A stretch of DNA of 32,001 bases, taken from Rhizaria sp. SCN 62-66 (taxonomy: Eukaryota). Shown piece by piece: positions 129 to 31,560 of the stretch; the stretch's first letter is position 1, and each line of letters begins with the position of its first letter. The DNA lies in assembly GCA_001724265.1 (NCBI GenBank), contig MEDY01000347.1:1-32001 (forward strand). Direction: 5' to 3'. The translations under genes were made by a program, and so were the position numbers. Under the pieces are notes generated by a model. The model was not told the origin of the DNA. It did no database searches and saw only the letters and a list, made by a program, of their open reading frames with translations.

Positions 129-679
129 ATTGGCTGTCACGTCGTTGCCGTCGTTGATGCTGGTGTGTAGTAGTCGATATGAGTCTTGTTCCCGCTCTAG
201 CAGCGAGACAAGCAGTAGTGGAGCGCTGCTCCTCATCCTAAGTGTGGTTATGACATACGTTGTCCCGTCTTCCTTTGCCAGGCGGCGCGTGCGAGATGCA
301 TAACTAGCGCCCAAATACAGAACCATAGTTCTCTTCATTCCTCATCATGTCATCTATTTTACTCCGCCGTCCTATCTTGAACTATTTTTTCTCGTCAAGA
401 GTGCTGTTGCTATACTAGCTGGAGGGCTGACGCTTTATGGACCTCAAAACGGCCTTCATTTTTGACTTGTTTCTTCCCATATACACCACATATGCTTATT
501 TCGAGTCATATTATTTTGAATTATTATACAATCTCACACTGTAATTACTACTCTATATTTTTAGTTTCGCTGACGGTTATACCGCTTCTCTAGCGCCCTC
601 CGACGCACCTTGGCAGCTCGAAATCTCGTTTAGTGGCCCTTCCTTTCCCCCCGCTTCCCGCGGCTCCAGCGGTGCCCCC

Positions 680-3600
680 ATGCAGCGCGGACTCGGCAGT
701 CCTTCCGACGCACCCGCGCCGGGCCTGGAAAAATCCGCCGCGCCGCGTTCCGCGGCCGCCCCGGTCTCCGCCGCCGGTCCCAGCGGCCCCGTCCCCGCGA
801 CCGTGAGCTCGACCGTGAGCGCCGCCGCGCCGCTTCCCGCCCCCACGGCGGCCGTGGCGCACGCCTCGCCGGCACTGCTGAAGCTGGCCTCGACCGCGTC
901 GTCTGTGGGCGCCGGCTCGGCCCCGCAGTCGACGCGCAGCCCGCAGGCCTCGCCGACGCAGAGCAGTGTCAGCCGACACAGCAACTCGAACACCCACGTT
1001 GCTGTGTCAGTTCCTGGTCCTGCTGCTGCTTCAACAGTTGCGAGCGCGAGTGCCGGTGCTGCCGGTGTGGGCCCGACTGCGTTTTCGTTTGCGAATCGCG
1101 GCTCAACACCGGCCCTCACGCCGTCATCGTCGTCCGTGCAACAGCCGCAACAGCCGCAATAGCCGCAACATCACAGTGCCATTGCATTCGCGCCTATGCT
1201 CAACGCCAACACCGCGTATAATAGCGGTAGCGCGCACGCCAGTGCGAGTGCGAACGCTCCCGTGTCTGTTACCGGCAGCCACAGTAGCGCGAGCAGTCGC
1301 CTTGCAGCGCCTCCGAGCCAGAGTCCGAGTCCGAGCTTGAGCGCACACAACGCCCACTCCAAGACTCAGTCTCAGTCGCAGGCACAGGCACCGAGTGCAC
1401 AGCAGCAGGGCCAGGGGCGGACACAGAGGCCGAAGCAAGCGCGTCCTGTGTCTGCTGCCCACGGTCACCCTTCTACATTTGCGGCTGCTGCGTCTGCGTA
1501 CGGCAACGGGTCTTACTAGCACTCGGGGTATCACCCGAGCTATGCGCAGAGCAGTGGCGGCAACGGCGGCGACTACGCGGCCGACATGTACAGCCAGCTG
1601 ACGCCTCTGTACGCGGACGCCGATGCTGACGCGGCACACACGGGCGCCGCCAGCGCAACCGCGTACGGCAGCGGCGACTACGGCGGCTACACCGCTGGCT
1701 ACGGCCATAGTGCTTTGGGCGGGTTTTACGGCAACAGCAGCAGTGCCATGGACAGCAATGCGATGCATAACATGAGTCTCGGCTACGGCGGAGGGTATCC
1801 GTATGCTCACAGTCAGACTGCGACAGGAGTGCCGAGTGCGTACAACGCCCACGGCGGCGGTTATGCGATGAACATGCACGATATGAGCATGGGCGCGTAC
1901 CCGGGCTACGCTAACGGCTACTACGCCCACGGTCACTCCGCTGCCCACGGCCACTACGGACCGATGCCGGGCGCCAGTGCCGCCGGCCCCGTCCCCGCCG
2001 CATCGGCCGGCCATGGCCCCGGCCCCGGCCTCAGCAGCCTCGGCAGCCTGGGCAGCTTGGGCGGCCTCTCCGGTCTCGAGAGCGCCCCGACCGGGGTCTC
2101 GGCGCCGCCGGAGCCGCTCGCGGTGGTGTTCATTCCGGGGCTGGGCCACGTCAGCACTGCTGCCCTCACGGACGCCAGCGCGGCCTCGAGCACCGGCCCC
2201 CGCAGCGCCGCCACCGCGACGAACCTGGCCGCGGGCGGTTTCGCGCGGGACGCCGCGGCGAGCCGGGCCGACGGCAGCCCCGCCAGCGTGGGCGACTCGG
2301 CCGTGGCCGTGGGCGTGTCCGAGAGCGTGTCTGAGAGCGACAGTGGCGCCAGCAGTGGCCCGAGCCTGCCTGCGCCGCTAGCGCAGCCGCAGACGAGGGC
2401 CGGGGCGGGTGCGGCGAGTCGCGGCGCCGCGGCCAACACGGGCGCCTACGGTCACTCGCTGCGCGGACCTCTTCTCGCCCACAGCCACGCACATAGCCAC
2501 AGCTTCGACTACGACAGCGGGGTTGGCTTCGACCACGGGTCTCCGCACTCGACCACCCGTTCTGTGGCTCAATCTGCCTCCCAGTCTCTGACTCAGCAAC
2601 AGCAACAGCAACAACAACAGCAACGCGGACTGGGTCAGTTCTCGCAGGGCTACGCGCAATACCCCGTGCACCCCGGTATGTACCCAGGTCACTATGCACA
2701 CGCCGCGAACAGCAGCAGCAACGGCGGCAATTGGGGCCCGTACTATCAGCAGAGGCCGCCGCACGCCCCGCTGCCTCACTCTGTTGCGCACTCGGTCGCG
2801 CACTCGATAGCTCAGTCTCAGTCTCAGTCTCAGTCAGTGGCCAACTCGGCGACTCCGTCTCGATCACAGTCGCGGGCGCCGTCAGCTGCGCCCTCTCGCG
2901 GGCCGTCTCGCGCACCTTCGCCGGCCCCCAATGCAACCGCTACAGGGGCGAATGCCAACATTGCCGCGAATGCGAGTTCAGCTGCGACCGCTCCCAACAA
3001 GCCAGTCTCCAACAGCACCAACAACGCTAATGCTGGTAATACAGGCGCTGGTCTTGGCCTTTCCCTGTCACTGTCCCGGGCCGCGTCGATGGCCCACTCT
3101 GCGGCGCACAGCCAGACCGGCGGCCTCCCGCTGAGCGCCGGGGCCAGCAACAGCGCGGGCGACGGCAGGGCCCCGTATCCCCACCCGCATCCGCTGGCGC
3201 TGGCGTATACGCGCGCCCAGTCCCAATCGCACATGCAGCTCGCGCAGCAGGGCGGCGGCTACGCCTCCACTGCGACCCTGCAACAGCAACATCAACAGCA
3301 GCATCAACGGCAATATCAGTTGCAACAGCAACAACAACAGCAGCAGCAACAGCAACAGAGGGTGCTTGGTGGCTACCCCAACAGTGGCAGCTTCACTGGC
3401 TACGCGCCTCAGCCCTATCCCAACAATGGCACGATGTACACCACCAATGGTGGCTTTGTCGGCACTGGGTACGGCTACGCCTACGCCAGCGGCTACGCAG
3501 GCGGGCCCCTCACTCCGGTCACTGCGAGCCTCTTCAACTACGCGAACCCCGCGTACTCCGCGGCGCACTCCGCGGCGCACTCCGCCACGCACTCTGTCGC

Positions 3601-6600
3601 GCACACGCCGCGGCACACGCCTGGCGTCACGCCGGCGCCGTCACCGGGCCCCGGCGCCGCCGCTGCTGGCGTCCTCCCGCCGCCGCTGCCGTTGCCTCAG
3701 CCGCAAGCGCAAGCGCAGGCGCTGCCGCCGCGGCCGCCTCAGACCAACCCTAACAACACCGGAGGCGTTGCGCCCGCCTCCGCGTCGCAGTCGATGCCGC
3801 TGTTACAGTCGCAGGCGCTTGCGCAGGCACTGGCTAATGGTGGAGGCAACAACATCTCCAGGGGCCCGCAAATGGCTTCTCTGCAGTCGTCCGTGTCTGC
3901 AGCGTCCTTGTCGTCATACGTGCTGCCGGCCCCCGGTGGCCTCACGGCGAGTGCTAGCGCGGGCCACAGTCACCCGGCCGGCGCTCCAGACGCAGGGAAC
4001 GACGGCTTCACTGCCCTCGCGGCCGCCGGCGGCGCCGTTAGCACGGGCGCCGCTGGCAGCGGAGTTGTGGCGCCCGACAGTGACCCCGCGACGCAGTACC
4101 GGCCGCGGTCTCGGTCGCGCTCGTGGTCGGGCGAGCCTGCTGTATGGATTGACCCTCAGGCTAGCAACAACAACAACAATAGCAATGCTAGAGCGCACAA
4201 TGCGAACGCGAATTTCGTCAGCGCGACCGCGAATGCGCCTGCCGCGACTTGCACCGTTGCTCCTGCTGCTGCTGTTGGTGCTGGTAACGATTCCGCTCGC
4301 GGTGGTTTACTGTCGTCGCTGCTGTCGTCTGTACAGTCGCGTGTTTCCGCCATTCTCGACACCAACAACGCCGGCAGTAATGCGACAAGCGGCGCCGCGA
4401 ACAACACATCTGACAACGCAGCTGCAACTTCATCTGCTGCTGCTGCTGCTGCTGTCGTAAAGGAGGGTGCCGCGACTGTTGCCGCATCGGCGACGACAGA
4501 GGACGCCGCCCTGCGCGGCGTTGTCCGTTCCCTCGCGCGGCCCCGCGCGGACTCTCTTTCCGACGGCGAGGGCGCCGCGGCCGCCGCCATCGCGGCCGCC
4601 GCGGCCTCTGCGCATCCTTTCGCCGCAAGCCCCGGCGGCGCGACGGCCGGCGGCGGCGGCGGCGCGACGGGCTCCTCCCGGCTGTGGCAGAAGCTGCTCC
4701 CGCTCGGCGGCCGCATCAAGGCCGCGGCGCGCCGCGCTGTGGGCTCCGCGGCGACGTCCTCGGCCGCCGCAGCGCTCGCCGCCGCGGCGCCCGTGTTTGC
4801 GCCGACCATCGCCGCGGCCGCGGCCGCGGCGGCAAGTCCGCCGACCGAGAGGGGCTCTCAGATCGCGGGCTCCGGCGCGAAAAACAACGCGGGCGACTCA
4901 AGTAGTGCTGCCGGAGTTACTGGCGCTGGCTCCGGCGACAGCGATCAGCAGACCGCAGACGCGCTCGTGGTCGGCATGGGGCAGGTGTTGCCGCTTGCGG
5001 GCACGCGTACCCTACCTCCCGGGCTGCTCGGCGCGCTGGGTTTAGACCGGGACTCGGCCTTCGCGAACCCTGACAGCCACGGCAGCCGCAGCCGGAGCTT
5101 CGGCGGCGGCGGCGATGACGAGAGCTACAGTCTGCGGGCCGCGTTCGCCGGTGCCGGCGTCGGGGTAGGCGGCAGGGGCCGGCGCAGGGGCCGCGGGCAC
5201 AGGCACAGGGGGCACTCCGCAGCCGCCGGTTCTAATGCGACGGGTGCTGGGGCCGCTGCGGATGCGAACGGGTCGCAGTCGCCGCTGAACTTGCAGTCAC
5301 ACTCACACTCTCACTCTCAGGCTCAGGCTCAGTCGCAACAGCCCCAGTCGCGTCCGCGGTCGCAGTCGCGCGCCAGCAGGGGCGGCAGCCGCAGCCGCGA
5401 GCGCAACAGCCACGGCGACACCGATTACTCGGACCACTCGTCCGACTACAGCGACTACAGCGACGACTACGACGACGAGGACGAAGAGGAGGACAGCTAT
5501 TACTACGACGACGACAGCAACGCCGGCGGCGCCAACGGCGAGGCCGCTCGCGTCGGCCGCCGGCGCCGCAGCAGCAGCAGCAGCACCAGCAGCAGCAGCC
5601 ACGGCACCAGCGGGCTCTACAGCATCGTCCGCGGCGGCGGGCCCGGCGGCGCGAACGCGCGCGGCCGCGCCCGCAACGGCGCCAGCGGCGGCCGCGGCGG
5701 GGGCCAACGCCCCGGCGCTGCTGCTAGCGGCAAGCGCGGTGGCGGCGGCGGCGGCGGTGGTGGGATTCGCAATGGCGGCGCGGGCAGCGAGCGCGCACGG
5801 CGCAGCTCGTCGTTCGACGATGAGGACTACTACGGCGACGGCGACAACTCGAGCGCGCTGTTGCGCGCATGCCAGTCGCTGCTGGTGCTGCTACCGCCGT
5901 GCTGCGCGTGGTGCATCCCGCACGCGGCCTGGCGGCGCCGCTCCTGGGGCCACACCCTGGCCGGAGTGGCCGTGCTGCTCCTGACGCTGGCATCTCTCCT
6001 GCTCTTCATCAAGTCCGTCGCGCGCATCGAGGGCGTGTCACTGGGCCCGCTCGCCGTCGACAACGCGCTCGCATGGTCACACCCGGAGTTCCAGGCCGTG
6101 CTGGCCGCCGAGGCGGTTGCTTTGGGTGCCAAACCCGCGCCCGTCGTTGCGCTTCCCCTCGCTCCGCCGCTGCTCGACGAGGGCGCGACCATCCCGCCCA
6201 ACACAGACGCTGACGCTCGCACGCGTGCTTCGATGATTGACTCAGGCGCTGTTGCTGGTGATGCCGCATCCGGCGTCGTGAGCGCGGTCAGCAAGCGCGT
6301 TTCGCCAGTGGCGTCGTTCATCTCGAGCTTTCTCACCGCTTCCGCTCCGGCCCGTCGCCTGCTGCCCCCGCCTGCCTCGGCCATCCTGCCGCCCGCGGCC
6401 CCCGTGCGGCGCCGCATGGTGCACCTGGACGTCACCGCGCTGGCCCCGACGCCGCGCCTGCTGCTGCAGCTTATCCCGCAGATCGCGCGCTGGGGCGCGA
6501 CGCACCTGCTCATCGACTGGGGCCCGCTGCTGCCATGGTACGGCGCCCTCGCGCCGGCCGCCGCGGCCGCCGGCGGGTTCTCGCGGGCCGACGTGCTCGC

Positions 6601-9600
6601 GGTGGCCACGGCGACCAAGCGCGCCGGGCTACGCCTGGGCATCGTACTGCCCGTGCTGACCGACGCAGGGTACTTGCTCAAAGCAGTGCCGGAGGCGCGC
6701 GAGCTAGCGAACGCCACGTTCGGCTTTACTGCAAACAATGACTACAGCAGGCGCCGCCGCCGGTCTAAGCGTCGCAACGGCAAGCAAGACTCAACACCTG
6801 GCTCTGGTCTTAGCGCTGGCTCTGCTGGCTCGACTGCGAGCAGTGCGACGGCGGCGACCGACGGCAGCGGCCTCGCGTGGCTGCACCGGCACCCCGGCAT
6901 GGCCGCCACACCCGCTCTGATCCCCGGGGGGCCGGGCCAGGCGCTCGTGGCCGAGGCGCTGAACCAGGCCCTGTCTCTGCACGGCGCGATCTACGTCGCC
7001 GAGGAGCACGCCAAGGCCGGCTGGGGCCGCAAGGACGAGGACGATTATTACAACACTGACGCTACGACCAGCGCCGCGTCGCCGTTGACTCACACGCAGG
7101 GCCAGACTGACGACACCGCCGCGCTCGCGCCCGACGCTGCGATTGCGGGCGCGCACAGCGAGTTCTCGTCCGCCGCCCGCACCGCCGCCGCGGCCGCTGC
7201 GGCCGGGGCGGGCGAGCTCTCCTCGGCGCCGCCGCGCGTTTGGAACGGGACACTGCTGCCGTGGGCACGGACGCGCGCCGAGCGCGAGGACCCCACGTCG
7301 CCGGCGCTGACCGTGCGGTCCCCGGCCGACGGCACGCTGCTGGTGCTGGTTCCCGCGGTGGACTTCGTGCACGTCGGCTCCTCGCGGCTGCCCGCTGTGC
7401 TCGCGCGCCCTGGCGCGTGCGTGTCCTGCTCCGCCCGCGGGCTCCCGGCCACCGAGATGGCCCTCGCGCGGTTCGCGGCCGTGGCGGCGCATCTGCGCAC
7501 CGAACACTCGCCGCGCGTGACGCCGCTGGTGTCGGACGACGGCGCGAGACTGTGGGAGACGGGCAGCCTCGAGGCATTGGCCGACGCCGGGTACAACCTC
7601 CACATCGCGAACCCGGACCCGCTGCTGCGCGGCCCGCCCTACGTGCTGCGCAACTACCTCTGGAACGGCTACCGCGCGCACTTCGCGCCGCACACGCTGT
7701 GGGGAGGCGCGGTCTACCGCGGCGCCGCCGGCGACGCCGAGCCGCTGGCGGACGCGGCGGCCGCAGCGGGCGCGGCGGCGGGCGCGGACCCCGCGGCGGC
7801 GGACGACAGAGAGGTTGAGCGTGTGCGCAGCGAGATCGCCAATCTCGCCAACAGCTACGCCGGGGTCAGCAGCGCGAGTGCCCAGAGCAGTGACATGCTC
7901 AACACTGCGGGCGCTGCTGGCGCTGGTGCTCATGCTGACGCTGTTTCCAATGGCTTCCCCGGTGCTGGTGGCTTTGTAAGAGACAACGTCGGAATCGACC
8001 CTATTGCTGCGTTGATGGCTGCAGCAGCTGTTGCCACTGACTCAGCAACGGCCGCCGCAGCCGCAGCCGCAATCAACAGCTACAGTCCCAACGATCAAAG
8101 CGACGATGCTGGCTTTTGTACCATCGAGCGCGAGCGCGCCTGCGACAACGACGGGGGTGCCAGCAAGAGCCCCGACTGGTGGCAGCGCTATGTGTTTGCC
8201 ACTGAGAGCTCGTGTCTCAATGCGAGCACGCGGAGCAGCCAGAGCTACAGCATTAGCTACAACTTCAACTACAGCTACAGCCGCACCCACGTCAGCTCAA
8301 ACAACGACGAGTACGAGACCGACACTATGACGACTACATCAGCGACGACCACGACGACGACGGTCACGTCGGCGACTCTTGTCCGCGGCGCGAGCCACGG
8401 GTTCCCGCTGTCCGACTGGCGGTCCGTCGCGACCGCGGCCGCCGCAGCCCCCGCCGCGCCCCGCGGCAGCGCCCCAACGCCCTTTGGCCCGCTCAAGGCG
8501 GTGGCGGCCGCACTGCGCCACACGGCGACCGACACGGACATCAGTATTGCTAACAGCAACTCCAACGCTGCCAGAACCAGCGTTAACGCCAACACGCGCT
8601 CAAAGTTGAAGAATGTTGCTCACCCCAGTTCTGTGTTATCCCAACAGCAACAACAGCAGGAACACGCGTTGGAATTGCCCCCGATCTATAGCGACGACTC
8701 GTCGGTCACTGCCCTTTTGGGCGACGTCCTCTCGCTGCCGCGCGCAATGGCGCCTTTCACGCTCTCGCTCACGGTCACCCTCGCACTCGGCGCCGACGCG
8801 GCCGCCATCGCGCGCGCCTCCGCATCGGCCGCCTCCGCTCCACCCGCGGGGTCTGCGGCGGGCGGCGGCAGCGGCAGCGGTGGCGGCGGCGGCGCGAGTG
8901 CGGCGGCACTGAACGGTGGCGCGCTGCCGCTGCTACCCGACATCGCCAAGCGCGTGTCGAACGCGCTCGCGTGGGCCCGCGTCGTGACGCGCGTCGGACT
9001 GGGCGGGATCGTGCTTATGGGGCCCGCGCGCGCCCCGCTGGCGCCGCTCGACGACGCGTACGAGTACCAGTACGAGCAGAGCAGCGAGTTCTTGCCTGAG
9101 AGCGTTCGCAGCAGCCTTGGCAACAACGACGTGTCCTCCAGTGCGGACGGTGATGACGGCTACTCCGCTGACAGCTACGATGATGACGACGACAATGAAA
9201 CGGAGGGTGACGACTCCATCGACTCTCATGCCGACAACAGTGCCGACAATAAATACGCTACCTCTCCCAGTCGCAGCCGTGGTCGCCCGACGCTCGTCCT
9301 CCCCCTTGCGCCCCCGCGCCCGCTGTCGGAGCCGCTGGCGGCCGCGCTGCCCGCGCTGGCGGCGTCGCTCGCGGCCCTGCGCGCGGGCCGCCTCCACGCG
9401 GAGACCCGCGACGGCGTCCTGCGCTCGCTGGGCTTCGCGCCGCTGAACCCCACCGCCGACGAGCTCGCGCTGTACAGCCGGACTGGCCGTCGCAGCGACC
9501 GTGCAGTCGCCACCGAAGCGTCGCCCGCGCTGCTGTCGGTCGAGGAGGCGACGACGGCGCCCGCGTTGTCGCTGCCGCCGCCGCTGCCGCTGCACTCGGA

Positions 9601-12600
9601 CCTGGCCGTGCTGCGGCCGCCGACGGACGCGCGCTGGCTGTCGGGCGTGCCCGCGCTGCGCTTCCCCGGCGCGCTGGTGCTGCGCGTGGCCGAGCAGCTC
9701 GAGGCGATCCGGCAGCACATCGCGGCCGTCGACGCCAAGCGCGCGATGCTGGCGCAGGCGCTCGTCATGACCATGGCCAAGGCGGCCACTGCGGCCGCGA
9801 CCGACTTTAACGTCGGACAAGACAGCAGTGCTGTGGGCGAGCTTGACAGCCGTGTCGAAGAGAATGAGGTCATCGTCGTCAACACAGTGAAGCCGAACCC
9901 GACTGCGCCTGCCAGTGGCACTAAGACTCCGCCGCGCCAACCGCCGTCGTCGCAGTCGCCCGCGGGCGTGTCCCCGGGCTCTCTGGCGACCACCGTGGCC
10001 ACGGTGGTTGCCATGACCGTCGCGGACCCCAGCCGCGCGGGCGGCGCGGTGCGGCGGCGCAGCCGGCCGCCGCCTGGCGCCAACGCGGGCCACTGGCTGA
10101 GCAAGATCTGGGACAAGCTGGCGGGGTCGGCGCAGTCGCTGCCGGGCTTCCCGGGCCTCTCATCTCTGGACGCCAGCGCTGCCGCGAGCAGCAACGCCAA
10201 CGCCGCTAACACGATTACTGCAGCGGGCAGTGCTGGCGGCGTTGGTAGCAGCGCAAACCCTGGCGTTACTCGGGAGTCAGCTGGGTCGGCGTCTGCACAA
10301 GATGTAAAGTCGGGGTCATCTGCCGATGCATCCGTCACGAACTCTGCTACAAAGCCGAGTGTTGATGGCTCGACTGCAACAGATAGTAGCAGTAGCGACG
10401 CAAATGCTGTTGCAACCGGTGCTAAGAAGTCGGAGTCTGCCACTGCGACGCAAGCCACTCCCTCAGCCTCTGGCGCTTCCACTGCATTGACTGCGACTGT
10501 CTCATCTGTTGACGTCGATGCGCTGCCCCCCGCCCTGGCCCCTCTGGGCCCGCTGGCGCCGCTGATCCGCCGCGAAGTCGCCGCCCTGGTCGCGCGCGCC
10601 ACTGCGCTGCGCCGCGCTCTGCAGACGCTGGCAGCATTCTCTACCGCGCGGCTGGCGCCGCTGCACTCGGTCACCGCCGTGGACGAGCTGTTCAAGGGCG
10701 TCGTGGGAGTGACTGCGAGCGAGATCGTCGCTCGGTCCCGCGTACAGTCGCATTCGCGGCCGCAGTCGCCTAAGTCACCAGTTGATGCCTTAACATCTAT
10801 CACCAAGGATGGAAATGGCAAGGGTGGCTCACCGGCGACTACTATTGACAAGGGTAAGAAGAAAAGCAGGAACAAGAGCAATAATAGCAAGACCAAGGAC
10901 AATGCTTTAATCGAAACTACGATGAAGGACATTGATGTAAGTTCAAGCTCCGCTTTGCCTGATGGTGCAGCTGACACACTGACTCAGACGAGGATCAAGA
11001 CAATGACGCCCTCAAAGACTACGCCTGAGTCCCAAGCCAAGTCTGACACGGACACTGACGCTGCATCTGACGCTGACAACGAGAGTGCTGCTGAGAGAGA
11101 CTCTGCCGTTGCTAACGACGCAACGCCTATCAATGCCGCAGAGTCATCATCTGATGCGACCACCAGCTCTGCTGCCACCGCCCAGCCGAACGCCACTGCT
11201 GCCGCCGCGACGAGCCCTGTCATCAGCGCGAACCTCGTCGCCCTCGGCACCGCCAAGCGCATCGCGGCCTCGCTCGCCACCGCCGCCGCCGAGGCCGCCT
11301 CCGCCTCCGCCTCCGCGTCGCCCTCGTTCTTCCCCGGCGTCTCCGGCGCCAGCGGCGGCACTGCGGCCGCCGCCACGGGCGCCGCGGAGCCCGACGTGGA
11401 GGCGGACGCGGGGGCCGGGCTGGGCTCGGTCTGTGACTGGCTGCCCGAGTGGGTCCCCGGCTGCCACAGCGACGAGGATGTTAACGCCGACGAGGGGAGC
11501 ATCGACGCGACGCCTGGCGAGGCTTCTAATCCCGCGGATGCCAATGCGGTCAGCGCTGCCAACGCCGTTGCGGCCGCGGCTGCGGAATCGATGCTGCTTG
11601 AGTCATTCGCAAAGAGCATGGACGCCGCTGCGGGCTCTAACTCCCGCACTCGCCCCGGCTCAAGTTCTAGCTCGAGTGGCCGCACTGGCGTCAGCTCCAC
11701 CGGTGTCCCCGTTCCTGTTCCTGTCCCGACTTCCCCCGTGCCCAGCAGCGTCTCTAGCGCCGCCAAGTCGCCCCGCGTCGGCAGCGGCGGCAACGGCATC
11801 TCGCTGCACACCGTGATCCTCATCTCGGGCGCGCTCTTCGCGCTCATCGTCGGCATCCCGCTCGCGCGCCTCGCGATGGCCTCACGCTGCGCGCACGCGC
11901 TCGCGCGCCGCGGGCTTCTGCCGCGCTGCTGCGTGCTCGCACCGAGCTCGGACGCGCGCTTCCCGCTCAACGCCAGCGGCGGCGGCAACGGCGACGACGA
12001 CGGCGACGACGACGACGGCGACGAGACCGGCGACGGCGATGGCGGCGCTGGCGGCGATGGCGCGAGCGCGGTTGCGCCGGTGCGGTTGCTCGCTTTACGC
12101 GAGCGCGAGCGCGATGGGCACCGCCAGCTCAGCACGCGCAACAGCAGCAACGCGAGCGCGCGCGCAAACGGGTTCGAGCTTGACCTCAGTGACAGCGACA
12201 CGCAGAAACATCAGCAGAAGCAGCACCAGGGCGGCGCACAGTACACCGTCGACGGCTCTGATGCCGGCGCTGCTATCAGCGTGGGTGGCAACCGCGAGTC
12301 GCCTGTCAGCGCTGAAGAAGAGGCCGCTGCGGTCGCAGTTGGCAAGCTTCTGACCGACTCGACACCGTCGATGTACAACAATAGCGTCAATGCCGGCGAC
12401 ACAGTGTTTGTTACTGGCAGCGCGGGCGCTCACATCGCAGCCATTTCTGCACCGTCTCTCACAAACTCAGGCTCTGGCTCCGGCTCCGCTTTCGGCACCG
12501 GCGCCGGCTCAGGCTCTGGCTCCGGTTCGGGTCCCATTGCCGCCGCGGCGGGCGGGCGCACCGCCACGAGCAGCAACTTTACTATGACCTACGGCGGCAA

Positions 12601-14107
12601 TACTGCCGAGTCGTCGCGGACGATGCCGCAGCGCGTCATGTCCGCCGGCGCTGCGCGTCCGTCGCGCGGAGTCGCGGCCGGGCTCGGCGGCGGCATTGCG
12701 CCCTTGCTCGCAGCCGCGACCAGCAACGCCAGTGGCGGCGCCGGCGGGCATGCGATCTCGGGCGGAAAGAGCAGCTCTAGCGCGAGCAGCCTTGCCACTG
12801 CGCTCAACGGAAACGCACCTGCAAGTCTTGGTAGTATCGCCATCCCGGCCGCCCCTGCCCCGCACGGTAACAGCAGCTCCAGCACCTCCGTCGGTGCATC
12901 GCCCCACAGCGCGGCGATGCCTGGCTACGCCCCCCGCGCGTACGCCACCACGCCTAACGGCTTCGCCCCCGGCTTCGCTTACCCCGCCGGCGGCAGCTTC
13001 ACCGGCTCGCACCCCGGATTCGCCCCCATTCCCGCCGGCTTCGCCTCCGGTCCCGGTGTGTTTAGCCATCATACCGCCCCGGGCTTCGCCGGGTTCGCCC
13101 CCGGCGCGCACGGCGGCTTCCCCCAACCCACACCCGGGCTCGGTCCTGTCTACGGCTACCCTCAGACCCATGGTCACGTACAGGGCCACGGTCGCGGCGT
13201 GACGCCCAGCGCGTCCCCCGGGCTCGGCCTGCCCCCGTCGGGCTACAACTACGCAGTGGGCAGCCCCGGCTCGAGCTCGCTACCGGGAGGCTTGAGCTCT
13301 GCCAACAACGCCGCTGCATCTAACGCGGTTGCGGGCGCCGCTATTGCCGGGTCTGCAGCGGGCACCGACACGGAATTAAATCACGCCCAGTCACAGACAC
13401 TTCCGCAGTCGTAGTCACACGGACTGGAGAGGACGACGACGCCGAGTCTGGCCGCCGCCCCGTCTCCCGGTCAAGCAATCCGCAGCACGCAGTTCCCACA
13501 ACAGCAACAACAGCAAAGTGTGTTTTCGTATCCAACTCCGTCACCGCCTCTCTCGTCGCAACAGCAACAGCAGCAACAGCAACAACAGCATCAACAGCAC
13601 ATGATGATGACGATGGGCATGATTCCTCACTCAACCCCGCTGTCGCAGGCTCTGCCAGCGAACGGCGGCTACCCTGCTCACAATATGTACCCTGCTGCTC
13701 AGCAGCATCAGCAGCATCAACCGTACGGTTTTTCCCAGTCTTCGTCGGCATTCTCGATGTCAAACGCTGCCCACGGCCATTCCCCTGCCCACGGCGGTCT
13801 GTCGGTGTCTGTCACCGGGCTCAGGTCCACGGCAGGCACTCCGGCTCCCATTGCGGCGACGTCCTACAGCGTCACGAACGCTATCGCGAACGCGAATGTG
13901 AACGGCAGCACACTCACGAACTCTTCCTCGAACGCGAACTTGAAGTCGAGCAACGTGAGCGCGAACGACAACATCAACGCTGGCACTAATGCGGGTGCAG
14001 CTGCGGACGCGACTAACGGTTTAAACAATGCTAATGCTTCCAATGGCAACACTGGGTCGAGTTCGATGCTGAAGCGTTCGCTCACTGACCGTGGCATCAG
14101 CCGGTAA
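680..14107 (+). CDS. Giant (~4,475 aa) membrane protein with a degenerate hexosaminidase D-like (GH20) domain, two TM helices and long low-complexity tails; contains 3 in-frame TAG codons
   Basis: ORFs 680-1162, 1196-1519, 1586-13414 and 13520-14107 are all in one frame and are separated only by single TAGs (1160, 1517, 13412). The first TAA is at 14105-14107, followed by AT-rich DNA. HEXD-like blocks: RMVHLDV..GATHLLIDW..LPW (~6413-6540), FVHVG (~7364), PLVSDD, LWGGAVYRGA, GIVLMG, EPLAAALPALAASL, FPGA (~9662). TM segments at ~5954-6010 and ~11810-11866. The frame is open back to 545 with a possible acceptor at 563-564, so the true start may be further upstream. Confidence 0.8.
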
Positions 14108-14352
14108 CAGTTACACGTGCCATTTTTCATTTTTACATCGCAGTGTGTCTTTCGTACGATCTCGAGTATTCCATTTCCAAACTCGTTATTTAGTCTTAAA
14201 ACGTATTTTATTCAAACATGTGTGGTATCATGTGGCCATTTGCTTGGCACTAAGCGGAAAAAATCAGCAAGATATCACCAATACACATTATTGTTACTTA
14301 TCATGGCGATCCATCGACTCTTAAATAATTCGGTGTTTCACCTATTTCCAGC

Positions 14353-16704: not shown

Positions 16705-17316
16705 ATGGGCAAGAAACCCAGGGGCGGCAAGGGCGGTGGATCTAACCCTCCCCAGCCCAAATCTGCGACTACCAATAACAACAACAACAGCACCAAGCCT
16801 GGCTCGCAGGCCGCCGCCGCCGCACTCACCGCCGCGACCGCCCCGGTTACGGTGACCGTCGCAGCCCCCGCCGACAACGATAACGACACCGGCAATAGCA
16901 CCGGCGTCCGCGCAGGCGCCCCTGAGGTAGGCGAGCTGCCTTTCACGGTCGCCGACATCCATCCCAGACTCGCGTCTTCCGCTTCCGTGAGTGCCGTGGC
17001 GTCACCGTCCGGCGGCCGCGGGTCGTTCGTCGCCCAGCGCATCGACACGCTCGCCGCGGCCGCCGAGGCCAGCGCCCGCCCGCGAGCGTCGCTGTCCAAC
17101 GGGCAGATCCGCTTTGACATCACCACCACGCACTCGGCCCCCAGCGTCGGCGCCGCCCCCGCCTTGGGCGACGCGTTCCAGGAAGACGACTAGGACGGCG
17201 CGTTCGCAAAGAAGGCCCTCGGCAGCAGCATCATGGGGCCCGCCAAGGCGTCTGCCGAGGCCGAGCTGGCCCGCTCGCTCGTTGCCGAGGGCACGGTGCA
17301 CACGCGCGCTGACTTG

Positions 17317-17347
<31 letters not shown>

Positions 17348-20300
17348 CCGTGGCCAGCAACCCCCTCGCGACGCCGACCCGCCTGCCCCGCACGCCCAAC
17401 AACGGCAACGGCCACGGCAGCACTCCGCGTAACGGCGCCACCTCTGGTGCGGGTGTGCTTGGCGCCAGCGACGGGTTCGTCATCCGCCGCGCGGCCGAGA
17501 TCACCGAGCTCGGCAAGGTCCCCTTCGACAGCAGCAACGTCGCTCCGCTCCGCGCGCGCGCCCGCGCCCTCGCCGTCGCGCGCCTCTCCGCCAAGACTAA
17601 GACCCAGGACGACTGCGCTGGCGCTGAGGCTGACTCGGCGATGGCCGCCGCTGCCGCCGCCGCGGCCGCCGCGCTGGTCGTCCCGCCCGTCCCAGGCGCG
17701 GCGGCCGTCCGCGACTCGACCGTGACGGCGGCCATGAAGACGCTGCGCAGCAAGCAGAGCATTGTCAAGCGCTCGCGCGCGCTCTATGATCTCTCGGCCG
17801 TGTACCGCCTGCTCACTGTCTCGCGCACTGAGGCCGTCGTTGCGGCGCCCGAGCCCGCGCTGGCGCTTTGGGCGCGGCACCCCGCCAACCCGCACTGCAC
17901 CGCGCCGGCCCCCGGGCTTGATGTAAGTACCCCTTACCCCGTGCCGAGCGCCGCGGTCTCCGCGAATGGCAGTTTCAGCGCGCACACGCCGAGCCGCAGC
18001 AGCCGCGCCGCGTCCCCCTTCGCCTCCCCCGCCGCTACCGGCCGCAGCAACGGAGACTCGGCAGACGCGGACGCGAGCGCCGGCGAGGGCCCTATGACGC
18101 CCTCGCGCGGCCGCAACCGCCGTCACCCCAGCCGCAACACTCCGCGCGGCACGCCGAACGCCGCGGCGACGACGGACGACGACGCCACGACCAGCAATAG
18201 TGCCAGCGTCAGTGCGAGCGCCACGCCGTCCCGCTCCCCCAGCGCCCGCACCCACAACAACGGCGCCGGCGCCGGCAACGGCAGCGGCAGCGTCAGCAAC
18301 ACGCCCAACACGCTCGCACCGCCTGCGGCGCTGTTGGGCGTGGCGCCGCACGGGATTAAGATTAGCGCCTTCGCGGCCTCCCCGTCCCCCGCCCCCACCC
18401 CGCGTCGCGGCCGCAGCGGTCACGGCCAAGGTAACACGACTGCGTCCGAGGCCGCCGCCACGGCTATCACGGCCGACGCGCCCCAGAAGCTCCGATGCGC
18501 GCTCTTCGCGCGGCCGCAGCCCGGCGCCCAACCGGGGGCCGCGGGTGGGGAGGTCTGCGCGCGCCCCTCGGAGGTGGAGGCGCTGATCGACGCGGCCGGG
18601 GGGCCCACGGGCGCTCTCGTGCACCTCCAGCGGCTCATGGCGGCCGCGCGCGGCGCCTTCACGTCCTTTGCCGAGCTCACTGCGGCCGTTGAGGTCCTCG
18701 CGCGGCCTTACAAGGAGATGGAGAAATCGGCGGCGAGTGATGAGGTCGAGTTCCAGGCCGCGCACGCCGCGGCATCCGCCTTGTCTTCGTCGGCTGAGAG
18801 CAAGGCTGACGAGGACGACGAGTCCCCCATGGCGCTTCAGGTACGTTCTGGAGGATACATCTCACTCTAACAATATGTTTCTAAAACTCCACATCGATAT
18901 TTACTGACAAGGACTTTCTAATCTTACCAACTATTGTCGTAATTCACTTGAAGTCGTTTTATTTTTCTCATATCATCGAATACCATTTCGTTTGACTCTT
19001 TCACATCTTTGCTTCCCTTTTCTCAGGCTCGCTTGTCCCGCCAGGCATTCTCCCGCGCCGCGCACCCCGCCCGCCGCTCCGTGGGCGCGCTGCTTAATGA
19101 CGGGACCGTGTCCTTCGACGTGGCCGAAGTGCTGGAGGAGCTGGTCGAGGAGGACGTCAACTTCCACTGGGAGCTCTTCGTCGCCGACAAGCAGGACCTC
19201 GAGTCCCCCGCCTTCTGGCTCGGCGCCGAACGGAACCCCGAGTCCGCGCCCGCCAAGGCGCTCGCGCTGCTGGCCGCGAACCGCTCGCTGCCGGTGTCGG
19301 CGCTCGCGTCCCCGCGAAGGCCCGTCGTGCCGCTCACCCCCAGCGCCACATCCAGCACCAACTCCGTTGCCGACGGCATCATGCTTACCCCGCCCTCGAG
19401 CGCTAGCAAGGCCAGCAGCAGCGGCGGGCTGACGGTGCACCCGCCCGCGACGCCCCGCACCCCACGCACGCTGCCCTTCGCCACGCCCAGCGGCTCGCTC
19501 AGCGGCTCTCATGGCGGAGTGACTCCGATCCTTCCGCCGTTGACGCCTTCGCAATCACAATCGCACGCCGACGCCCGCACCCGCCGCGCGCGCTCGCAGC
19601 TGTCGCTGGCGCGGCTCATGCAGCAGCAGGCGCGCAATGAGGCCGCGCGCAAGTTCGTCACCTTCCAGCTCACGATGGCGGCGGCACAGTGCAACGCCGC
19701 CGCGATGGAGCGCTACACGGCTTACCTCGTCACGAACGGCATCGCGTCCGACTCCGAGTCCAGCGCGACCGTCCAGGCGCAGGTGGGCGCGCAGAGCCAG
19801 AGCGCGGTGCACTGCGCGAAGTTCGCTGACGTGTTCCCCGCCGCCGACGCAGAGGCCACCGCGGCCGCCGCGGGCGCGCTGTTCCCAGCGTACCCCCTCG
19901 TTCTGACGCACGCGCACGTGTCGGAGCTGCTGGTCGCCGCGCTGGGCGCCGTGCCCGCGCAGGCGCACCTGGCGACGCTCAAGCACGAGGCCGCGCGCGC
20001 GAGCAGCGACCGCCGGCCCGCCCGTCCTCAGCCCCTGCTGCTGGCGACTTGTGACCGCGAGCGCGGCTACGGCGCCCTGCTGTCCCTGCGCTCCCTCGGC
20101 AGCGCGCTCGCGTTGCTGTCGCTGCCGATCATCGTCCACGCGGACCTGATGCACGAGACGCTCATCGCGCTGCGCCCTGCGGCCGCCCCCACCGCTGCCG
20201 CCGACGCCGCCGAGGGCATCAACACGAGCGCGCAGGACCGCGGCGAGATCCTCAACGACTTGACCGCGCACTACGCGGTGCCCACGGTCTCGGCCGAGCT

Positions 20301-25023: not shown

Positions 25024-25538
25024 CGGATATCGTCACAAGAAAGTCGCCGAGATTCGCAGAACAACGTGATATTCAATTTATAACGCGTGAAGTTCTACTG
25101 GCAAAGTACAACATGAGAAGGCACAGCGTACATGCGAGTTGTGTTGTGCATTTTGGGAAGTGAGCACGTGGAAGGAAGCGCTGCAATGTGCCAGACAATC
25201 ACATAAAGATATGGCGGGGTTTCCACCATCCACACGACGTATTAAAAGAGGAAGATAATATACACATACAGGGCAGTTACATACAGTTCATAGTTAGGAG
25301 ATTGACGATCCGGATGCGTTGAATTGTCCAAGATTCTTCTGGGCCACAAGCACATCTCGTCCAAGCCAAGTCCCACACCCCAGGCAAGTTTCATTCACAG
25401 ATCCATATATCGCCCACTATGACGAATTATTTTAGTAACTATCGGTTTCTATACTAATATAGATTATTTCCTTGGTCTTATATCTCTTAGACTTCAAAGC
25501 TAGGTGCGCTACAGCTACTTTTGGCTCCACGCATCGAG

Positions 25539-27668
25539 ATGTCTGAGTCCGGCGTTCCGCCCGCACCCGCGGCGTCTACTACGCTCCCCCTCTCGATTGA
25601 CGAGCGTGCGGAGCTCGCTCGCCTCCGACGTGAGAACGCTTTTCTGCGCGCTCGTCTTGACGCCCTTGAGCACTCCACTGTCAGTCCAAACACTGACGAT
25701 TTGCGCAAGGAGACCAACTACGCCACTGCGGCAACTTCTACCACATATTCATCCAACTCAGCCGCTGTATCCGAGCTCGAGCGCGCGGCGAGCGTCTACA
25801 CGCGCGGCCACTCGCTGACCCGGCGCGAGATCAGCCGTTACGGCCGCCAGCTCATCATGCCCGAGCTTGGCGTCGCCGCGCAGTAGCGCTGGCGTAATGG
25901 CTCCGTGCTCGTCATCGGCGCGGGCGGTCTGGGCGCGCCGGTCTGCCTCTACCTCGCGGCTGCCGGGGTGGGCCGGCTCACGGTCGTGGACGACGATGCG
26001 GTGGAGGAGAGCAATCTGCACCGACAGGTGATCCACCGCGAAAGCACGGTGGGCCAGCCCAAAGCGGAGTCGGCCCGCGACGCCTGCGTGGCTTTGAACA
26101 GCACCATCACAGTCACTGCGGTCGTCGCGCGCCTGACCACCGCGAACGCGCTTGCCCTTACTAACGCGCATGACGTGATTATTGACGCGTCTGACAACGT
26201 GGCGACTCGGTATCTGGCTTCGGACGCGGCTGTCCTGGCCGGAAAGCCGCTTGTCTCGGCATCGGCACTGAGGTGCGAAGGGCAGATCACGGTCTACAAC
26301 GCGTTCGCCGACACACCGTGCTACCGTTGCCTCTTCCCCGCGCCGCCGCCCGCGGCCACGGTGCTGAGCTGCGGCGACGGAGGCGTTATGGGGCCCGTCC
26401 CGGGTCTGTTGGGAATCTGGCAGGCGACCGAGGCGCTAAAGGTGCTTGCCAAGGCTCCGGCGAACGAAGTGCTTTCAAGGTACATAACTCGGCCATCATT
26501 TCGCATACTCAACAACTAGAATCGCGATACATGGCGAAACAACCTGTGTCTGCATTATTTACTCTTCGTTTTATTCCTTCTTATTTTATGTTGATGTAAA
26601 ATTCTCACATTGGTTACTTTGCAATCTACACATCTACCTGTGCACTCATCGTATAGGCGTCTCATGTTAATCGACGCTGGTGCAGCCAAGGTGCGCACCG
26701 TCGCCCTCCGGGCCAAGGTCCCCGGCTGCGCTGCATGCGGGTCTCCTTACATCCCCGCTAACGTGCACAAAAACACTCCTGACAATGCGGGCACGGTTAA
26801 CTCTAGCACAGATGTGAACACGGATGGCAAAGTGTGGCTCAGTGAAGAGACTCTGCTGGCAGGTGCTCTGCCGGGGCTTTTGGGCGCTGTATGCCCTGTC
26901 ACAGCCGCGGCTGCTGCTGACGCTGCCGCTGCCGCCGCTGAGGCTGCAGCTCCTGCTGCTGCGACTAGATCCAAGCCCGCGACTGTCGCCGCTGACAATA
27001 CAGAGGCGGCAGCGGCAGCGAAGGCTGAAGCTTTGGCTCTTGGTTGCGAGGGCTACGTTGCCGTCACTGACACTGACAACGACATTAGCAGTTTCAGCAC
27101 CGCCACTGCAGGGATGCGCAATTCTAATAGTGAAAGCAACACTGGGAGTTGTTTGTTTTTCTCAGAGACACCTAAGGACGCGTGGGCACGTGTTACCAGC
27201 AGTGCGGCTTTACTTCTCGACGTCCGCGACGCACCGCAGCGCGCGATATGCTCGCTTCCCCCCGCGTCCGCATTGCAGCACAAGGCGGACGTGCATATCC
27301 CGCTCGCAGCGCTGTCCACCGAGCAGGGCCAGGAGGCGCTGGCGCGCGCTGTCATTGAGTTTCGCGACGCGCGGAGAGAGGCGCGGGCTAAGGGAGCACT
27401 GGCACCGTCTAAGGGTGGCGCTGCGGAGGAGAGCGTGGTGATCGTGGTTGTGTGCAGGAGGGGCGTGTTTTCACGCACAGCTGCCGAGCTCATCGCTAAG
27501 AGCGCACTGGGCACGTGCACGAATAACAATAACGCTCACACGACAGCTTGCCACACTGTCAACGATGGCCGTGCCAGTCGCGCAGTCGCTGTAAGTCTTG
27601 TTGTGAACATGCGGGGCGGACTCGAAGCGTTTGCGAAGCAGATTGACCCCGCGTTTCCACTGTACTGA
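25539..27668 (+). CDS. MOCS3: Adenylyltransferase/sulfurtransferase MOCS3/UBA4 (ThiF/MoeB + rhodanese), ~650 aa; exons 25539-26479 and 26657-27668; in-frame TAG at 25884
   Basis: RYGRQLIMPELGVAAQ*RWRNGSVLVIGAGGLG, VDDDAVEESNLHRQ, DASDNVATRY, CYRC, SCGDGGVMGPVPG, CAACG, LLDVR, rhodanese loop CRRG and the C-terminal GGLEAFAKQIDPAFPLY. Splicing gives LSR-RLMLIDA. Ends at TGA. Confidence 0.93.
26480..26656 (+). other. Spliceosomal intron in MOCS3 (177 nt, phase 2)
   Basis: AG|GTACAT...GTATAG|G boundaries, AT-rich body with in-frame stops; splicing yields the expected LSxRLxLxD segment. Confidence 0.85.
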
Positions 27669-28268
27669 AAGGGGCTGCTCATTGCACTTCATTTTACGAA
27701 CATTAGACGGCGTTGCACATTTGTGAACGCAACTAAGTGATACATAGAACGGCTTATTTATTTCATAGAAAGCGTTATTAAAGCACGTTTACAAGACGAC
27801 AATATGAGATGATTGTATTTGCATTTGCAGGATTTGTGAAATGATGAGTGCCAACATTACAACGTCGTACGTGTGATGGTTTAAGCACTATAGCATATTT
27901 CTCGGGGAATCGTGGATTTGTAAGAATCATCGTCATCAATTGAGACCTCCAACCAGCAGCAACGACAACAGAACATAATTAGAGCCAAAGGAAATAACCA
28001 CACGAGTCTGAAACGCACCGTTCAGGAACGACTTTTCGGTCCGGGTACGCACGGCACGACCAAGCAAGTGTTGTTAATAGTAAATTATCGCCGCGGAAAA
28101 AACGTGAAAAGAAATAAAAGAAACAAAAACAAATGAAATAAAAGAGAGAAACACGATACGGTTCCTCCAACAAAACTCAACACTACATAACACTAACGCA
28201 TGCAGCACGCACGACTACTGCGCGTGACAGCAGCATCTAAAGAAGGGAATTGCACTAACTATTAAGCG

Positions 28269-28284
28269 ACACACACACACACAC
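28269..28284. repeat. Short (AC)n microsatellite
   Basis: acacacacacacacac seen directly in intergenic DNA; a similar imperfect (GT)n tract lies at ~29104-29122. Confidence 0.7.
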
Positions 28285-31334: not shown

Positions 31335-31560
31335 TCGCCCGATCCAGTCACGCCGCTTTGGAGGTCCAGTAAGAACCGGCGACGACCGAGCTGACCGGCT
31401 GAACCGGACCGAGACAGAGACGGAGTGACCGTGATCAAAGGTAGGTCGTCCTTTTTCAAACGGTTGGAGCTCGGTCGGTTCGGTTGGGCTGGGAGTGAGG
31501 AACAGATGGCGATCTGGAATCGGTGCGAATTGCCTCTTTTCGGACGTGAATAGCTTTAAT
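31335..31560. promoter_or_regulatory. Putative compact bidirectional promoter between the sterol oxidase (-) and CCT5 (+)
   Basis: Head-to-head ATGs ~226 nt apart if exon 1 of the oxidase is correct. Inferred from position only. Confidence 0.5.

What the first reader, a model, noticed from the sequence alone, without database searches (positions are those of the whole stretch)
25833..25935. TAG inside the conserved ThiF/MoeB domain of the housekeeping gene MOCS3/UBA4
Seen: RYGRQLIMPELGVAAQ*RWRNGSVLVIGAGGLG. The spacing between RYxRQ and the GxGGLG nucleotide-binding loop matches the family without any gap (human [33 protein letters not shown], from memory), so the TAG must supply exactly one residue. 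The downstream catalytic, Zn-binding and rhodanese motifs are retained, which argues against a pseudogene. The column is variable in the family (L, Q, E, V), so it supports sense decoding but does not identify the residue.
Basis: partly seen in the sequence, partly recalled or inferred. Interest (0 to 1): 0.8.

Follow-up and report, generated by a model that had tools for sequence, protein, structure and literature searches.

The report
Sense TAG codon in a eukaryote's MOCS3
An uncultured, GC-rich microbial eukaryote from wastewater reactors appears to read the stop codon TAG as an amino acid, which is why its essential MOCS3/UBA4 gene carries a TAG in the middle of a conserved domain.

Summary
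TAG at 25884-25886 is codon 116 of a two-exon, 651-codon MOCS3/UBA4 gene. It fills exactly one alignment column between RYxRQ and GxGGxG: spacing is 22 in 114 of 117 sequences, the query included.

It is not an isolated defect. Over 8,323 in-frame codons of seven coding stretches there are 5 TAG, 0 TAA and 0 TGA. The TAGs lie in three genes. Codon-usage signal continues in frame across each TAG and collapses after TAA/TGA terminators. Seven gene ends use TAA (4) or TGA (3), never TAG.

The exact ORF pieces that end at two of these TAGs occur on 7 and 6 public contigs, so an assembly error is unlikely.

Best reading (0.8): a nuclear code with UAG as a sense codon and UAA/UGA as stops, as in Rhizaria exLh, Iotanema and some phyllopharyngean ciliates. 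The lineage here is unplaced.

The residue is unresolved. Glu is favoured by the only conserved site (four nearest relatives; site probability 0.40, against 0.075 for Gln and 0.013 for Leu). Gln is favoured by a 9-nt repeat with TAG in place of CAG.

No tRNA(CUA), eRF1 or read-level RNA proof could be obtained.

The parts
25539..26479 (+). MOCS3/UBA4 exon 1: N-terminal coiled-coil extension and most of the ThiF adenylation domain
   Evidence: Translation. Pfam ThiF E 4.3e-70, residues 101-310. 65% BLASTP identity (69% over 279 tree-alignment columns) to the closest relative P0129.
25884..25886 (+). In-frame TAG, codon 116, one column between RYGRQ and GAGGLG
   Evidence: The exact 115-aa ORF ending here is on 7 contigs.
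26480..26656 (+). Intron, 177 nt, GTACAT...TATAG, AT-rich, phase 2
   Evidence: Sequence. GC 0.36-0.39 per codon position against 0.53-0.80 in the flanking exons. The junction peptide EVLSRRLMLIDAG matches P0129 EVFSRRMLLIDAG.
26657..27668 (+). MOCS3/UBA4 exon 2: second CxxC, Ala-rich insert, rhodanese domain, stop TGA at 27666-27668
   Evidence: Pfam Rhodanese is sub-threshold, E 0.0088.
545..14107 (+). Giant low-complexity gene, up to 4,520 codons, ends at TAA 14105-14107. Start not fixed; the first ATG in the open frame is at 680.
   Evidence: Translation. Codon-usage score is positive in frame in every segment and negative after the TAA. No Pfam family.
1160..1162 (+). In-frame TAG 1 of the giant gene, third unit of the 9-nt repeat caacagccg / caacagccg / caaTAGccg (1139-1165)
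1517..1519 (+). In-frame TAG 2 of the giant gene
13412..13414 (+). In-frame TAG 3 of the giant gene. 230 further open, coding-like codons follow, up to the TAA.
16705..18870 (+). Orphan gene b, 721 codons, ATG 16705, stop TAA 18868-18870
   Evidence: Among 1.84 billion representatives, the only matches at E up to 1e-10 are its own two pieces.
17191..17193 (+). In-frame TAG of gene b (context FQEDD_DGAF)
   Evidence: The exact 162-aa piece ending here is on 6 contigs.

Best explanation
The window comes from the nuclear genome of an uncultured, GC-rich, intron-bearing eukaryote found in wastewater and bioreactor metagenomes. Its genetic code reads UAG as an amino acid, while UAA and UGA remain the stops. 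The TAG in MOCS3/UBA4 is therefore an ordinary, rare sense codon: about 0.6 per 1000 codons in this window.

The inferred mechanism, by analogy with described UAG-only codes, is a tRNA with anticodon CUA that pairs with UAG but not UAA, together with an eRF1 that no longer efficiently recognises UAG.

Shown here: the TAG is real. It takes one residue column. The gene is otherwise intact. In-frame TAGs recur in neighbouring genes, while TAA and TGA never do. No gene in the window ends in TAG.

Inferred: genome-wide reassignment, the tRNA and eRF1 basis, and the residue. The residue is Glu or Gln at roughly equal odds; Leu is disfavoured.
For: 1. Homology runs through the TAG without a gap. The conserved RYGRQ lies before it and GAGGLG after it. 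The first in-frame ATG after the TAG lies beyond the nucleotide loop, so both motifs can only be in one protein if the TAG is decoded.

2. In 8,323 in-frame codons of seven coding stretches there are TAG 5, TAA 0, TGA 0. Off-frame in the same DNA the counts are TGA 227, TAA 77, TAG 54. If in-frame stops were random errors, five of five being TAG has probability about 0.15^5 = 8e-5 (my arithmetic).

3. A codon-usage log-odds score was trained on the middle of the giant ORF. It is +0.24 to +0.48 per codon in frame on both sides of all five TAGs and negative in the other two frames. It is -0.17, -0.67 and -0.23 after the TAA/TGA terminators and -0.11 in the intron.

4. Terminators of seven genes are TAA x4 (giant gene, gene b, gene c at 18952-22710, Usp) and TGA x3 (MOCS3, YbeY, the putative last exon of the FA-hydroxylase gene). 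TAG is used by 0 of 7.

5. The exact 115-aa and 162-aa ORF pieces that end at two of the TAGs are on 7 and 6 contigs from Logan and ENA assemblies. The post-TAG piece P0003 is on 6 contigs.

6. MOCS3 is intact for 535 codons after the TAG and aligns to its C-terminus with the closest relative.

7. UAG-only reassignment with UAA kept as a stop has precedents (PMC5304391, passages read; PMC11687900, abstract read).
Against: - Only one of the five TAGs sits in a gene with homologues. The other four are in low-complexity or orphan genes, where coding continuity rests on composition and open frames.
- No tRNA gene of any kind is in the window, and no genome is held. The decoder and eRF1 are therefore unseen.
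- The listed pieces of the laid runs do not show a contig bridging 25884-25886 or an RNA contig spliced across the intron. UAG in the mRNA is not demonstrated.
- Seven terminators are too few to exclude UAG also acting as a stop.
- The giant gene has a self-consistent standard-code model, ORF 1520-13414 ending at TAG, if the coding-like flanks are dismissed.
- The two best clues to the residue disagree: Glu from relatives, Gln from the repeat.
Confidence: 0.8

Rival explanations
1. UAG is ambiguous or only partly read through. It is still a stop at gene ends, but is decoded at internal sites by near-cognate or suppressor tRNA, either context-dependent as in Condylostoma and karyorelict ciliates or as programmed readthrough.
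For: In-frame TAG is rare, 5 in 8,323 codons. No dedicated tRNA has been seen. Only seven terminators were examined, so use of TAG as a stop elsewhere is not excluded.
Against: 0 of 7 genes end in TAG. Internal TAGs occur as early as codon 116 of an essential enzyme and near the start of a 4,520-codon gene, where inefficient readthrough would be costly. Coding signal is undiminished after each TAG.
Confidence: 0.1
2. Nonsense mutations: MOCS3, and the neighbours independently, are pseudogenes or carry null alleles.
For: CAG>TAG and GAG>TAG are single-step nonsense mutations. No paralogue check on a whole genome was possible.
Against: All five in-frame stops are TAG, with no TAA, TGA or frameshift in 8,323 codons. 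All catalytic motifs and the intron phase are kept. No second MOCS3 above 65% identity is in the collection that holds this organism's contigs. The same stop is on 7 contigs.
Confidence: 0.04
3. RNA editing restores a sense codon in the transcript, for example U>C giving CAG or A>I giving UGG.
For: RNA contigs bridging the TAG were not shown, so this is not excluded.
Against: No other letter is listed at 13412-14, 17191-93 or 25884-86 in the two RNA-labelled runs, though cover there is unproven. W is absent from the column in 119 homologues. Site-specific nuclear stop-codon editing at five sites in three genes has no precedent known to me (recalled).
Confidence: 0.04
4. Sequencing or assembly error at 25884.
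For: Low depth, about 4-10x, in the laid runs.
Against: The exact ORF pieces bounded by this stop are on 7 (upstream piece) and 6 (downstream piece) contigs of separate assemblies. Four more in-frame TAGs follow the same pattern.
Confidence: 0.02

Closest known systems
Nuclear code of Rhizaria sp. exLh (UAG = Leu; UAA and UGA stops), Panek et al. 2017, PMC5304391 (passages read)
   Same: Only UAG is reassigned. The real gene ends there were reported not to use UAG. A non-ciliate eukaryote recognised from in-frame UAG in conserved genes.
   Different: In exLh, UAG is frequent (384 in 71 genes) and means Leu. Here it is rare (5 in 8,323 codons), and Leu has a site probability of 0.013 at the one conserved site. 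The lineage here is unplaced; no named rhizarian was among the rows of the MOCS3 tree.
Nuclear code of Iotanema spirale (UAG = Gln; UAA and UGA stops), same paper. This corresponds to NCBI table 15 as I recall it.
   Same: UAG-only reassignment. Gln is one of the two best candidates here, because the 9-nt repeat has TAG in place of CAG.
   Different: Iotanema is an anaerobic fornicate. This organism is GC-rich (0.43-0.74 per kb), and its MOCS3 groups with unnamed sequences near Amoebozoa and Heterolobosea. The conserved site favours Glu over Gln 5:1.
[quoted passage not shown] 2024, PMC11687900 (abstract read)
   Same: Independent UAG-only reassignments, with UAA fixed as the preferred stop. 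Some were found by mining metagenome data.
   Different: Those are ciliates. This window has none of the features I recall for ciliates (low GC, tiny introns). TGA is also a terminator here, in 3 of 7 genes.
Oligohymenophorea sp. PL0344 (UAA and UAG code for different amino acids), McGowan et al. 2023, PMC10553269 (title and start of abstract seen in a search listing; UAG = Glu and UAA = Lys are recalled)
   Same: A precedent for UAG meaning Glu, if the Glu reading here is right.
   Different: There UAA is also reassigned. Here TAA ends 4 of 7 genes and is never in frame.
MOCS3 / Uba4 adenylyltransferase-sulfurtransferase (solved: 6yub, 6yuc; bacterial MoeB 1jw9)
   Same: ThiF domain, both CxxC pairs, the Cys loop, and a rhodanese domain with the CRRG loop and the conserved C-terminus.
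   Different: An in-frame TAG at codon 116. An N-terminal coiled-coil extension and a long Ala-rich insert, shared only with a clade of six unnamed relatives: P0129, P0130, P0131, P0004, P0005, P0007.

Membership tests
MOCS3/UBA4 (ThiF-rhodanese E1-like enzyme) | ThiF/MoeB adenylation domain | tested here: met
   PF00899 E 4.3e-70, 236 bits against a cut-off of 28.1, residues 101-310. Uba4 6yub E 2.6e-57.
MOCS3/UBA4 (ThiF-rhodanese E1-like enzyme) | RYxRQ and GxGGxG nucleotide-binding motifs at family spacing | tested here: met
   Spacing is 22 with the TAG counted as one residue, as in 114 of 117 motif-bearing sequences.
MOCS3/UBA4 (ThiF-rhodanese E1-like enzyme) | Two CxxC zinc motifs and the Cys-bearing crossover loop | tested here: met
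   PCYRC, SCGDGG and CAACG align with the same motifs in P0129, P0130, P0004 and others. That these are the zinc and catalytic residues is recalled from the family literature.
MOCS3/UBA4 (ThiF-rhodanese E1-like enzyme) | C-terminal rhodanese domain with active-site Cys | tested here: met
   Pfam Rhodanese is only 16.9 bits against a cut-off of 22.2. However, LLLDVRD, VVVCRRGVFS and RGGLEAF..DPAFPLY align with P0129, and with P0004, which carries PF00581.
MOCS3/UBA4 (ThiF-rhodanese E1-like enzyme) | Uninterrupted reading frame under the standard code | tested here: not met
   TAG at codon 116 of 651. It is the only defect.
Nuclear genetic code with UAG-only stop-to-sense reassignment | In-frame UAG at residue-bearing columns of conserved genes | tested here: met
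   One conserved gene, MOCS3. Four further in-frame TAGs in two genes without homologues.
Nuclear genetic code with UAG-only stop-to-sense reassignment | UAA and UGA never in frame, and used as terminators | tested here: met
   0 TAA and 0 TGA in 8,323 in-frame codons. Terminators are TAA x4 and TGA x3. Coding score drops after them.
Nuclear genetic code with UAG-only stop-to-sense reassignment | UAG not used as a terminator | tested here: inconclusive
   0 of 7 gene ends, which is too few to be significant.
Nuclear genetic code with UAG-only stop-to-sense reassignment | Cognate tRNA with anticodon CUA | not testable with these tools
   ARAGORN finds 0 tRNA genes in the window and Rfam finds 0 matches. 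No genome is held.
Nuclear genetic code with UAG-only stop-to-sense reassignment | Altered eRF1 stop recognition | not testable with these tools
   eRF1 is not in the window and no genome is held.
Nuclear genetic code with UAG-only stop-to-sense reassignment | One consistent amino acid at UAG positions | tested here: inconclusive
   Single conserved site: E 0.40, D 0.15, Q 0.075, K 0.07, L 0.013. Four of the six nearest relatives have E. The 9-nt repeat points to CAG/Gln.
Nuclear genetic code with UAG-only stop-to-sense reassignment | UAG present in the mature mRNA (no editing) | tested here: inconclusive
   PolyA RNA-Seq contigs lie on both exons. No difference is listed at the TAG, but no bridging contig is shown.

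The most novel reading that the evidence does not exclude
UAG encodes glutamate while UAA and UGA both remain stops, in a deep, so far unnamed eukaryotic lineage common in wastewater reactors. That combination is not among the UAG-only codes I found in print, which are Leu or Gln (PMC5304391; PMC11687900). It would be an independent origin of UAG reassignment outside ciliates, rhizarians and fornicates.
Probability: 0.3. Interest if true: 0.85.

Novelty: new member of a known kind. Interest (0 to 1): 0.7.

Why it matters
Nuclear codes in which UAG and UAA have different meanings are rare. The papers I read list one rhizarian, one fornicate and a few ciliate lineages. They bear on how eRF1 and suppressor tRNAs co-evolve.

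A further case matters for three reasons.

- It occurs in a GC-rich, intron-bearing, uncultured eukaryote that recurs in wastewater and bioreactor samples. That adds an independent data point, and possibly a new codon meaning (Glu).
- It shows that eukaryotic contigs in such metagenomes are mis-annotated. Gene callers cut this organism's proteins at every TAG, as seen in the public protein collection.
- Public DNA and polyA-RNA runs that hold the organism already exist, so the code, tRNA and eRF1 could be worked out.

Tried and rejected
- Whole genome: none is held. No genome-wide codon inference, tRNA(CUA) or eRF1 search, or paralogue scan was possible.

- Metagenome-contig scan with the post-TAG part of exon 1: 32 loci, best 53% over the full match. 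L025 reaches 66% over a partial match, but it is a multi-intron gene that does not cover the TAG column. No close relative was found, so no TAG-to-sense-codon comparison between strains was possible.

- Read laying at likeness 90 on 12100-32001 was noisy, because low-complexity GC-rich contigs of other organisms were laid too (hundreds of spurious joints).
  - The listed pieces do not bridge 25884-25886. The X4 piece ends at 25873 and the X5 piece starts at 25934. No RNA joint across the intron was listed.
  - The RNA run X5 has zero depth in three bins that are intergenic by my gene models (16084-16747, 22724-23387, 28036-28699). This absence of cover is only a hint that X5 reflects transcripts.

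- dN/dS: only 7 coding variants among strains, 4 synonymous and 3 not. In MOCS3 there is 1 of each (26183 ATT>ATC; 27253 TCG>TTG in one RNA contig). Too few to use.

- GC3 periodicity: too weak to decide coding continuity. Replaced by the codon-usage score.

- Neighbour-residue context model for the TAG residue: dominated by composition (A and S on top), so uninformative.

- Orthologues of gene b, sought to read its TAG column. Of the 3 hits with E up to 0.001, two are its own pieces. The third, P0249 (E 1.3e-5, 30%), matches residues 328-507, away from the TAG.

- Pfam on the giant gene and gene b: no family.

- Taxonomy from the MOCS3 tree. The window groups with six unnamed sequences. The nearest named rows (Dictyostelium, Planoprotostelium, Willaertia) share only a 15-row set with SH-aLRT 96. 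Placement is unresolved. The tree used 46 rows that I picked from about 240 hits, favouring named and nearest ones.

- Hidden mini-intron around the TAG: rejected because the spacing is exact.

- Translation restart after the TAG: rejected because RYGRQ would be lost and the next in-frame ATG lies after the nucleotide loop.

- Pyrrolysine or selenocysteine: not considered applicable to a eukaryotic UAG (recalled knowledge).

Full report
**What is there**

The window is GC-rich, 0.43-0.74 per kb. It carries eukaryote-type genes with AT-rich GT..AG introns.

On the + strand a gene starts at ATG 25539. It has two exons, 25539-26479 and 26657-27668, separated by a 177-nt intron (GTACAT...TATAG), and it ends at TGA 27666-27668. 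The joined CDS has 651 codons and exactly two stop triplets: TAG at codon 116 (25884-25886) and the terminal TGA.

Exon 1 matches Pfam ThiF at E 4.3e-70 in one stretch, residues 101-310, that runs through the TAG. It aligns without a gap to solved Uba4 (6yub), with L opposite the TAG.

I tested the spacing on the query plus the 119 listed hits P0004-P0122. The RYxRQ...GxGGxG pair is found in 117 of these 120 sequences. The spacing is 22 in 114 (the query included, with the TAG counted as one residue), 23 in 2 and 24 in 1.

Exon 2 aligns to the C-terminus of the nearest relative P0129. The alignment includes the second CxxC, the LLLDVRD segment, the CRRG rhodanese loop and the GGLEAF..DP.FP.Y end. 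The Pfam Rhodanese score itself is below threshold.

**The TAG is not alone**

Listing frames with only TAA and TGA as stops shows two neighbouring genes with the same feature.

- A giant low-complexity gene, 545-14107, has TAGs at 1160, 1517 and 13412 and ends at TAA.
- An orphan gene b, 16705-18870, has a TAG at 17191 and ends at TAA.

I trained a codon-usage log-odds score on the middle of the giant ORF.

- It is +0.24 to +0.48 per codon in frame on both sides of all five TAGs.
- It is negative in the other two frames.
- After the TAA/TGA terminators it is -0.17, -0.67 and -0.23, and in the MOCS3 intron it is -0.11.

Over seven coding stretches (8,323 codons) the in-frame counts are TAG 5, TAA 0 and TGA 0. 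Off-frame in the same DNA they are TGA 227, TAA 77 and TAG 54. Seven gene ends use TAA (4) or TGA (3), and none uses TAG.

A standard-code model exists for the giant gene alone: ORF 1520-13414 ending at TAG. It would require about 325 upstream and 230 downstream codons to be open and coding-like in the very same frame by chance.

**Is it an artefact?**

The public protein collection holds this organism's ORFs as cut by a bacterial-style gene caller.

- The 115-aa piece ending at the MOCS3 TAG is on 7 contigs.
- The 204-aa piece starting after it is on 6 contigs.
- The 162-aa piece of gene b ending at its TAG is on 6 contigs.

All are from Logan and ENA assemblies.

Runs holding the stretch are bioreactor, wastewater and activated-sludge metagenomes. 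Four runs were laid: X3 and X4 (DNA?), X5 (polyA RNA-Seq) and X6 (RNA?, probably DNA). They give long pieces with 0-2 other letters, and no other letter is listed at any of the three TAGs in the laid range.

The listed pieces do not bridge 25884-25886, so read-level confirmation, and UAG in the mRNA, remain open. RNA-library contigs lie on both MOCS3 exons, which is compatible with expression but does not prove it.

**Second copy and selection**

In two searches of the 5.8-billion-protein collection, the only hit above 65% identity is the window's own post-TAG ORF. P0129 (65%) is recorded from one JGI contig only, not from the Logan/ENA assemblies that hold this organism. I therefore read it as an orthologue in a related organism, not a paralogue.

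Strain variants are too few for dN/dS: 4 synonymous and 3 non-synonymous in all coding sequence, and 1 of each in MOCS3.

**Which residue?**

Across 119 homologues the column is variable: L35 S15 A13 E9 K9 V9 R8 M7 I7 Q2 C2 T2 D1.

In the clade that holds the window (window+P0129 SH-aLRT 99, +P0130 97), the column is E in four of the six relatives (P0129, P0130, P0004, P0005), S in P0007 and A in P0131. The following W is shared with P0129 and P0130.

How well do those four relatives predict the window elsewhere?

- Where all four agree, the window agrees in 106 of 109 columns.
- Where all four are E, it agrees in 5 of 5.
- Where all four agree but P0007 and P0131 both differ, it agrees in 5 of 5.

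A site likelihood on the 46-row tree gives E 0.40, D 0.15, Q 0.075, K 0.07 and L 0.013.

Against this, the first TAG of the giant gene is the third unit of caacagccg / caacagccg / caaTAGccg, so TAG stands where CAG stands in the other two units. That is what a synonymous C>T change would give if TAG = Gln. The context of the gene b TAG is acidic (FQEDD_DGAF).

I weigh Glu and Gln about equally and Leu as unlikely. With one conserved site this cannot be settled.

**Comparison with what is known**

UAG-only reassignment with UAA kept as a stop is described for:

- Rhizaria sp. exLh (Leu) and Iotanema spirale (Gln) (PMC5304391, passages read). The authors predict a tRNA(CUA) and note eRF1 changes.
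- Phyllopharyngean ciliates (Leu, and Gln twice) (PMC11687900, abstract read).

UAG = Glu is known to me only together with a reassigned UAA. The PL0344 paper (PMC10553269) was seen only as a title and abstract start, and the residues are recalled. For Blastocrithidia, the abstract start of PMC12153298 states UAR = Glu.

Four full-text searches returned no paper describing such a code in a wastewater eukaryote or in a GC-rich non-ciliate beyond these. Supplements were not consulted.

The organism cannot be placed. Its MOCS3 groups with six unnamed sequences. The nearest named rows are amoebozoans and a heterolobosean, at weak resolution.

**Verdict**

The best explanation (0.8) is a variant nuclear code with UAG as a sense codon. 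This is a new, unplaced member of a known kind of code change, with a fair chance (about 0.3) that the meaning is Glu, which would be a new variant.

The decoder tRNA, eRF1, mRNA-level proof and the residue are inferred or open.

Noticed in passing
window 545-14107 (+): A gene of up to 4,520 codons made largely of Ala/Ser/Gly/Gln-rich low-complexity sequence, with no Pfam family. A central part of its product (around residues 1,900-2,700 of P0002) looks globular and reminded me of a hexosaminidase-D/GH20-like TIM barrel. That resemblance is recalled, not tested.
   Followed up: partly
window 16705-18870 (+): Gene b (721 codons) is an orphan. A HMMER scan of 1.84 billion representatives found only its own two TAG-separated pieces and one weak hit, P0249 at E 1.3e-5.
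   Followed up: yes
window 14353-16248 (-): A 631-codon open frame with a YbeY endoribonuclease domain (E 3.1e-20, residues 208-277) and long extensions on both sides. It converges on the 3' end of the giant gene.
   Followed up: no
window 29521-31113 (-): A fatty-acid hydroxylase/sterol desaturase-type gene split into at least two exons (Pfam positions 2-83 and 61-132 in separate frames), ending at TGA. The TAG in the extended upstream frame (P0123 residue 56) lies in sequence that looks non-coding.
   Followed up: partly
window 25539-25700 and relatives P0129, P0130, P0131, P0004, P0005, P0007: MOCS3 here and in six unnamed relatives carries an N-terminal coiled-coil-like extension (..ENA.L..R...LE..) before the ThiF domain. 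The window and P0129 also share a long Ala-rich insert before the rhodanese domain. Its function is unknown.
   Followed up: partly
public protein collection, P0003, P0126, P0127, P0248: This organism's proteins are stored in public collections as fragments cut at TAG and read into introns. For example, P0003 ends in intron-encoded YITRPSFRILNN.
   Followed up: yes
window 27669-29500: A long AT-richer gene-poor stretch (GC 0.43-0.53) downstream of MOCS3, with a (CA)n microsatellite near 28270.
   Followed up: no
window 27253: One polyA RNA-Seq contig (X5, depth 4.5) reads T instead of C. This changes Ser to Leu in the conserved ICSLP motif of the rhodanese domain. DNA runs X3 and X4, and X6, read C. 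It could be a strain allele or an error.
   Followed up: partly
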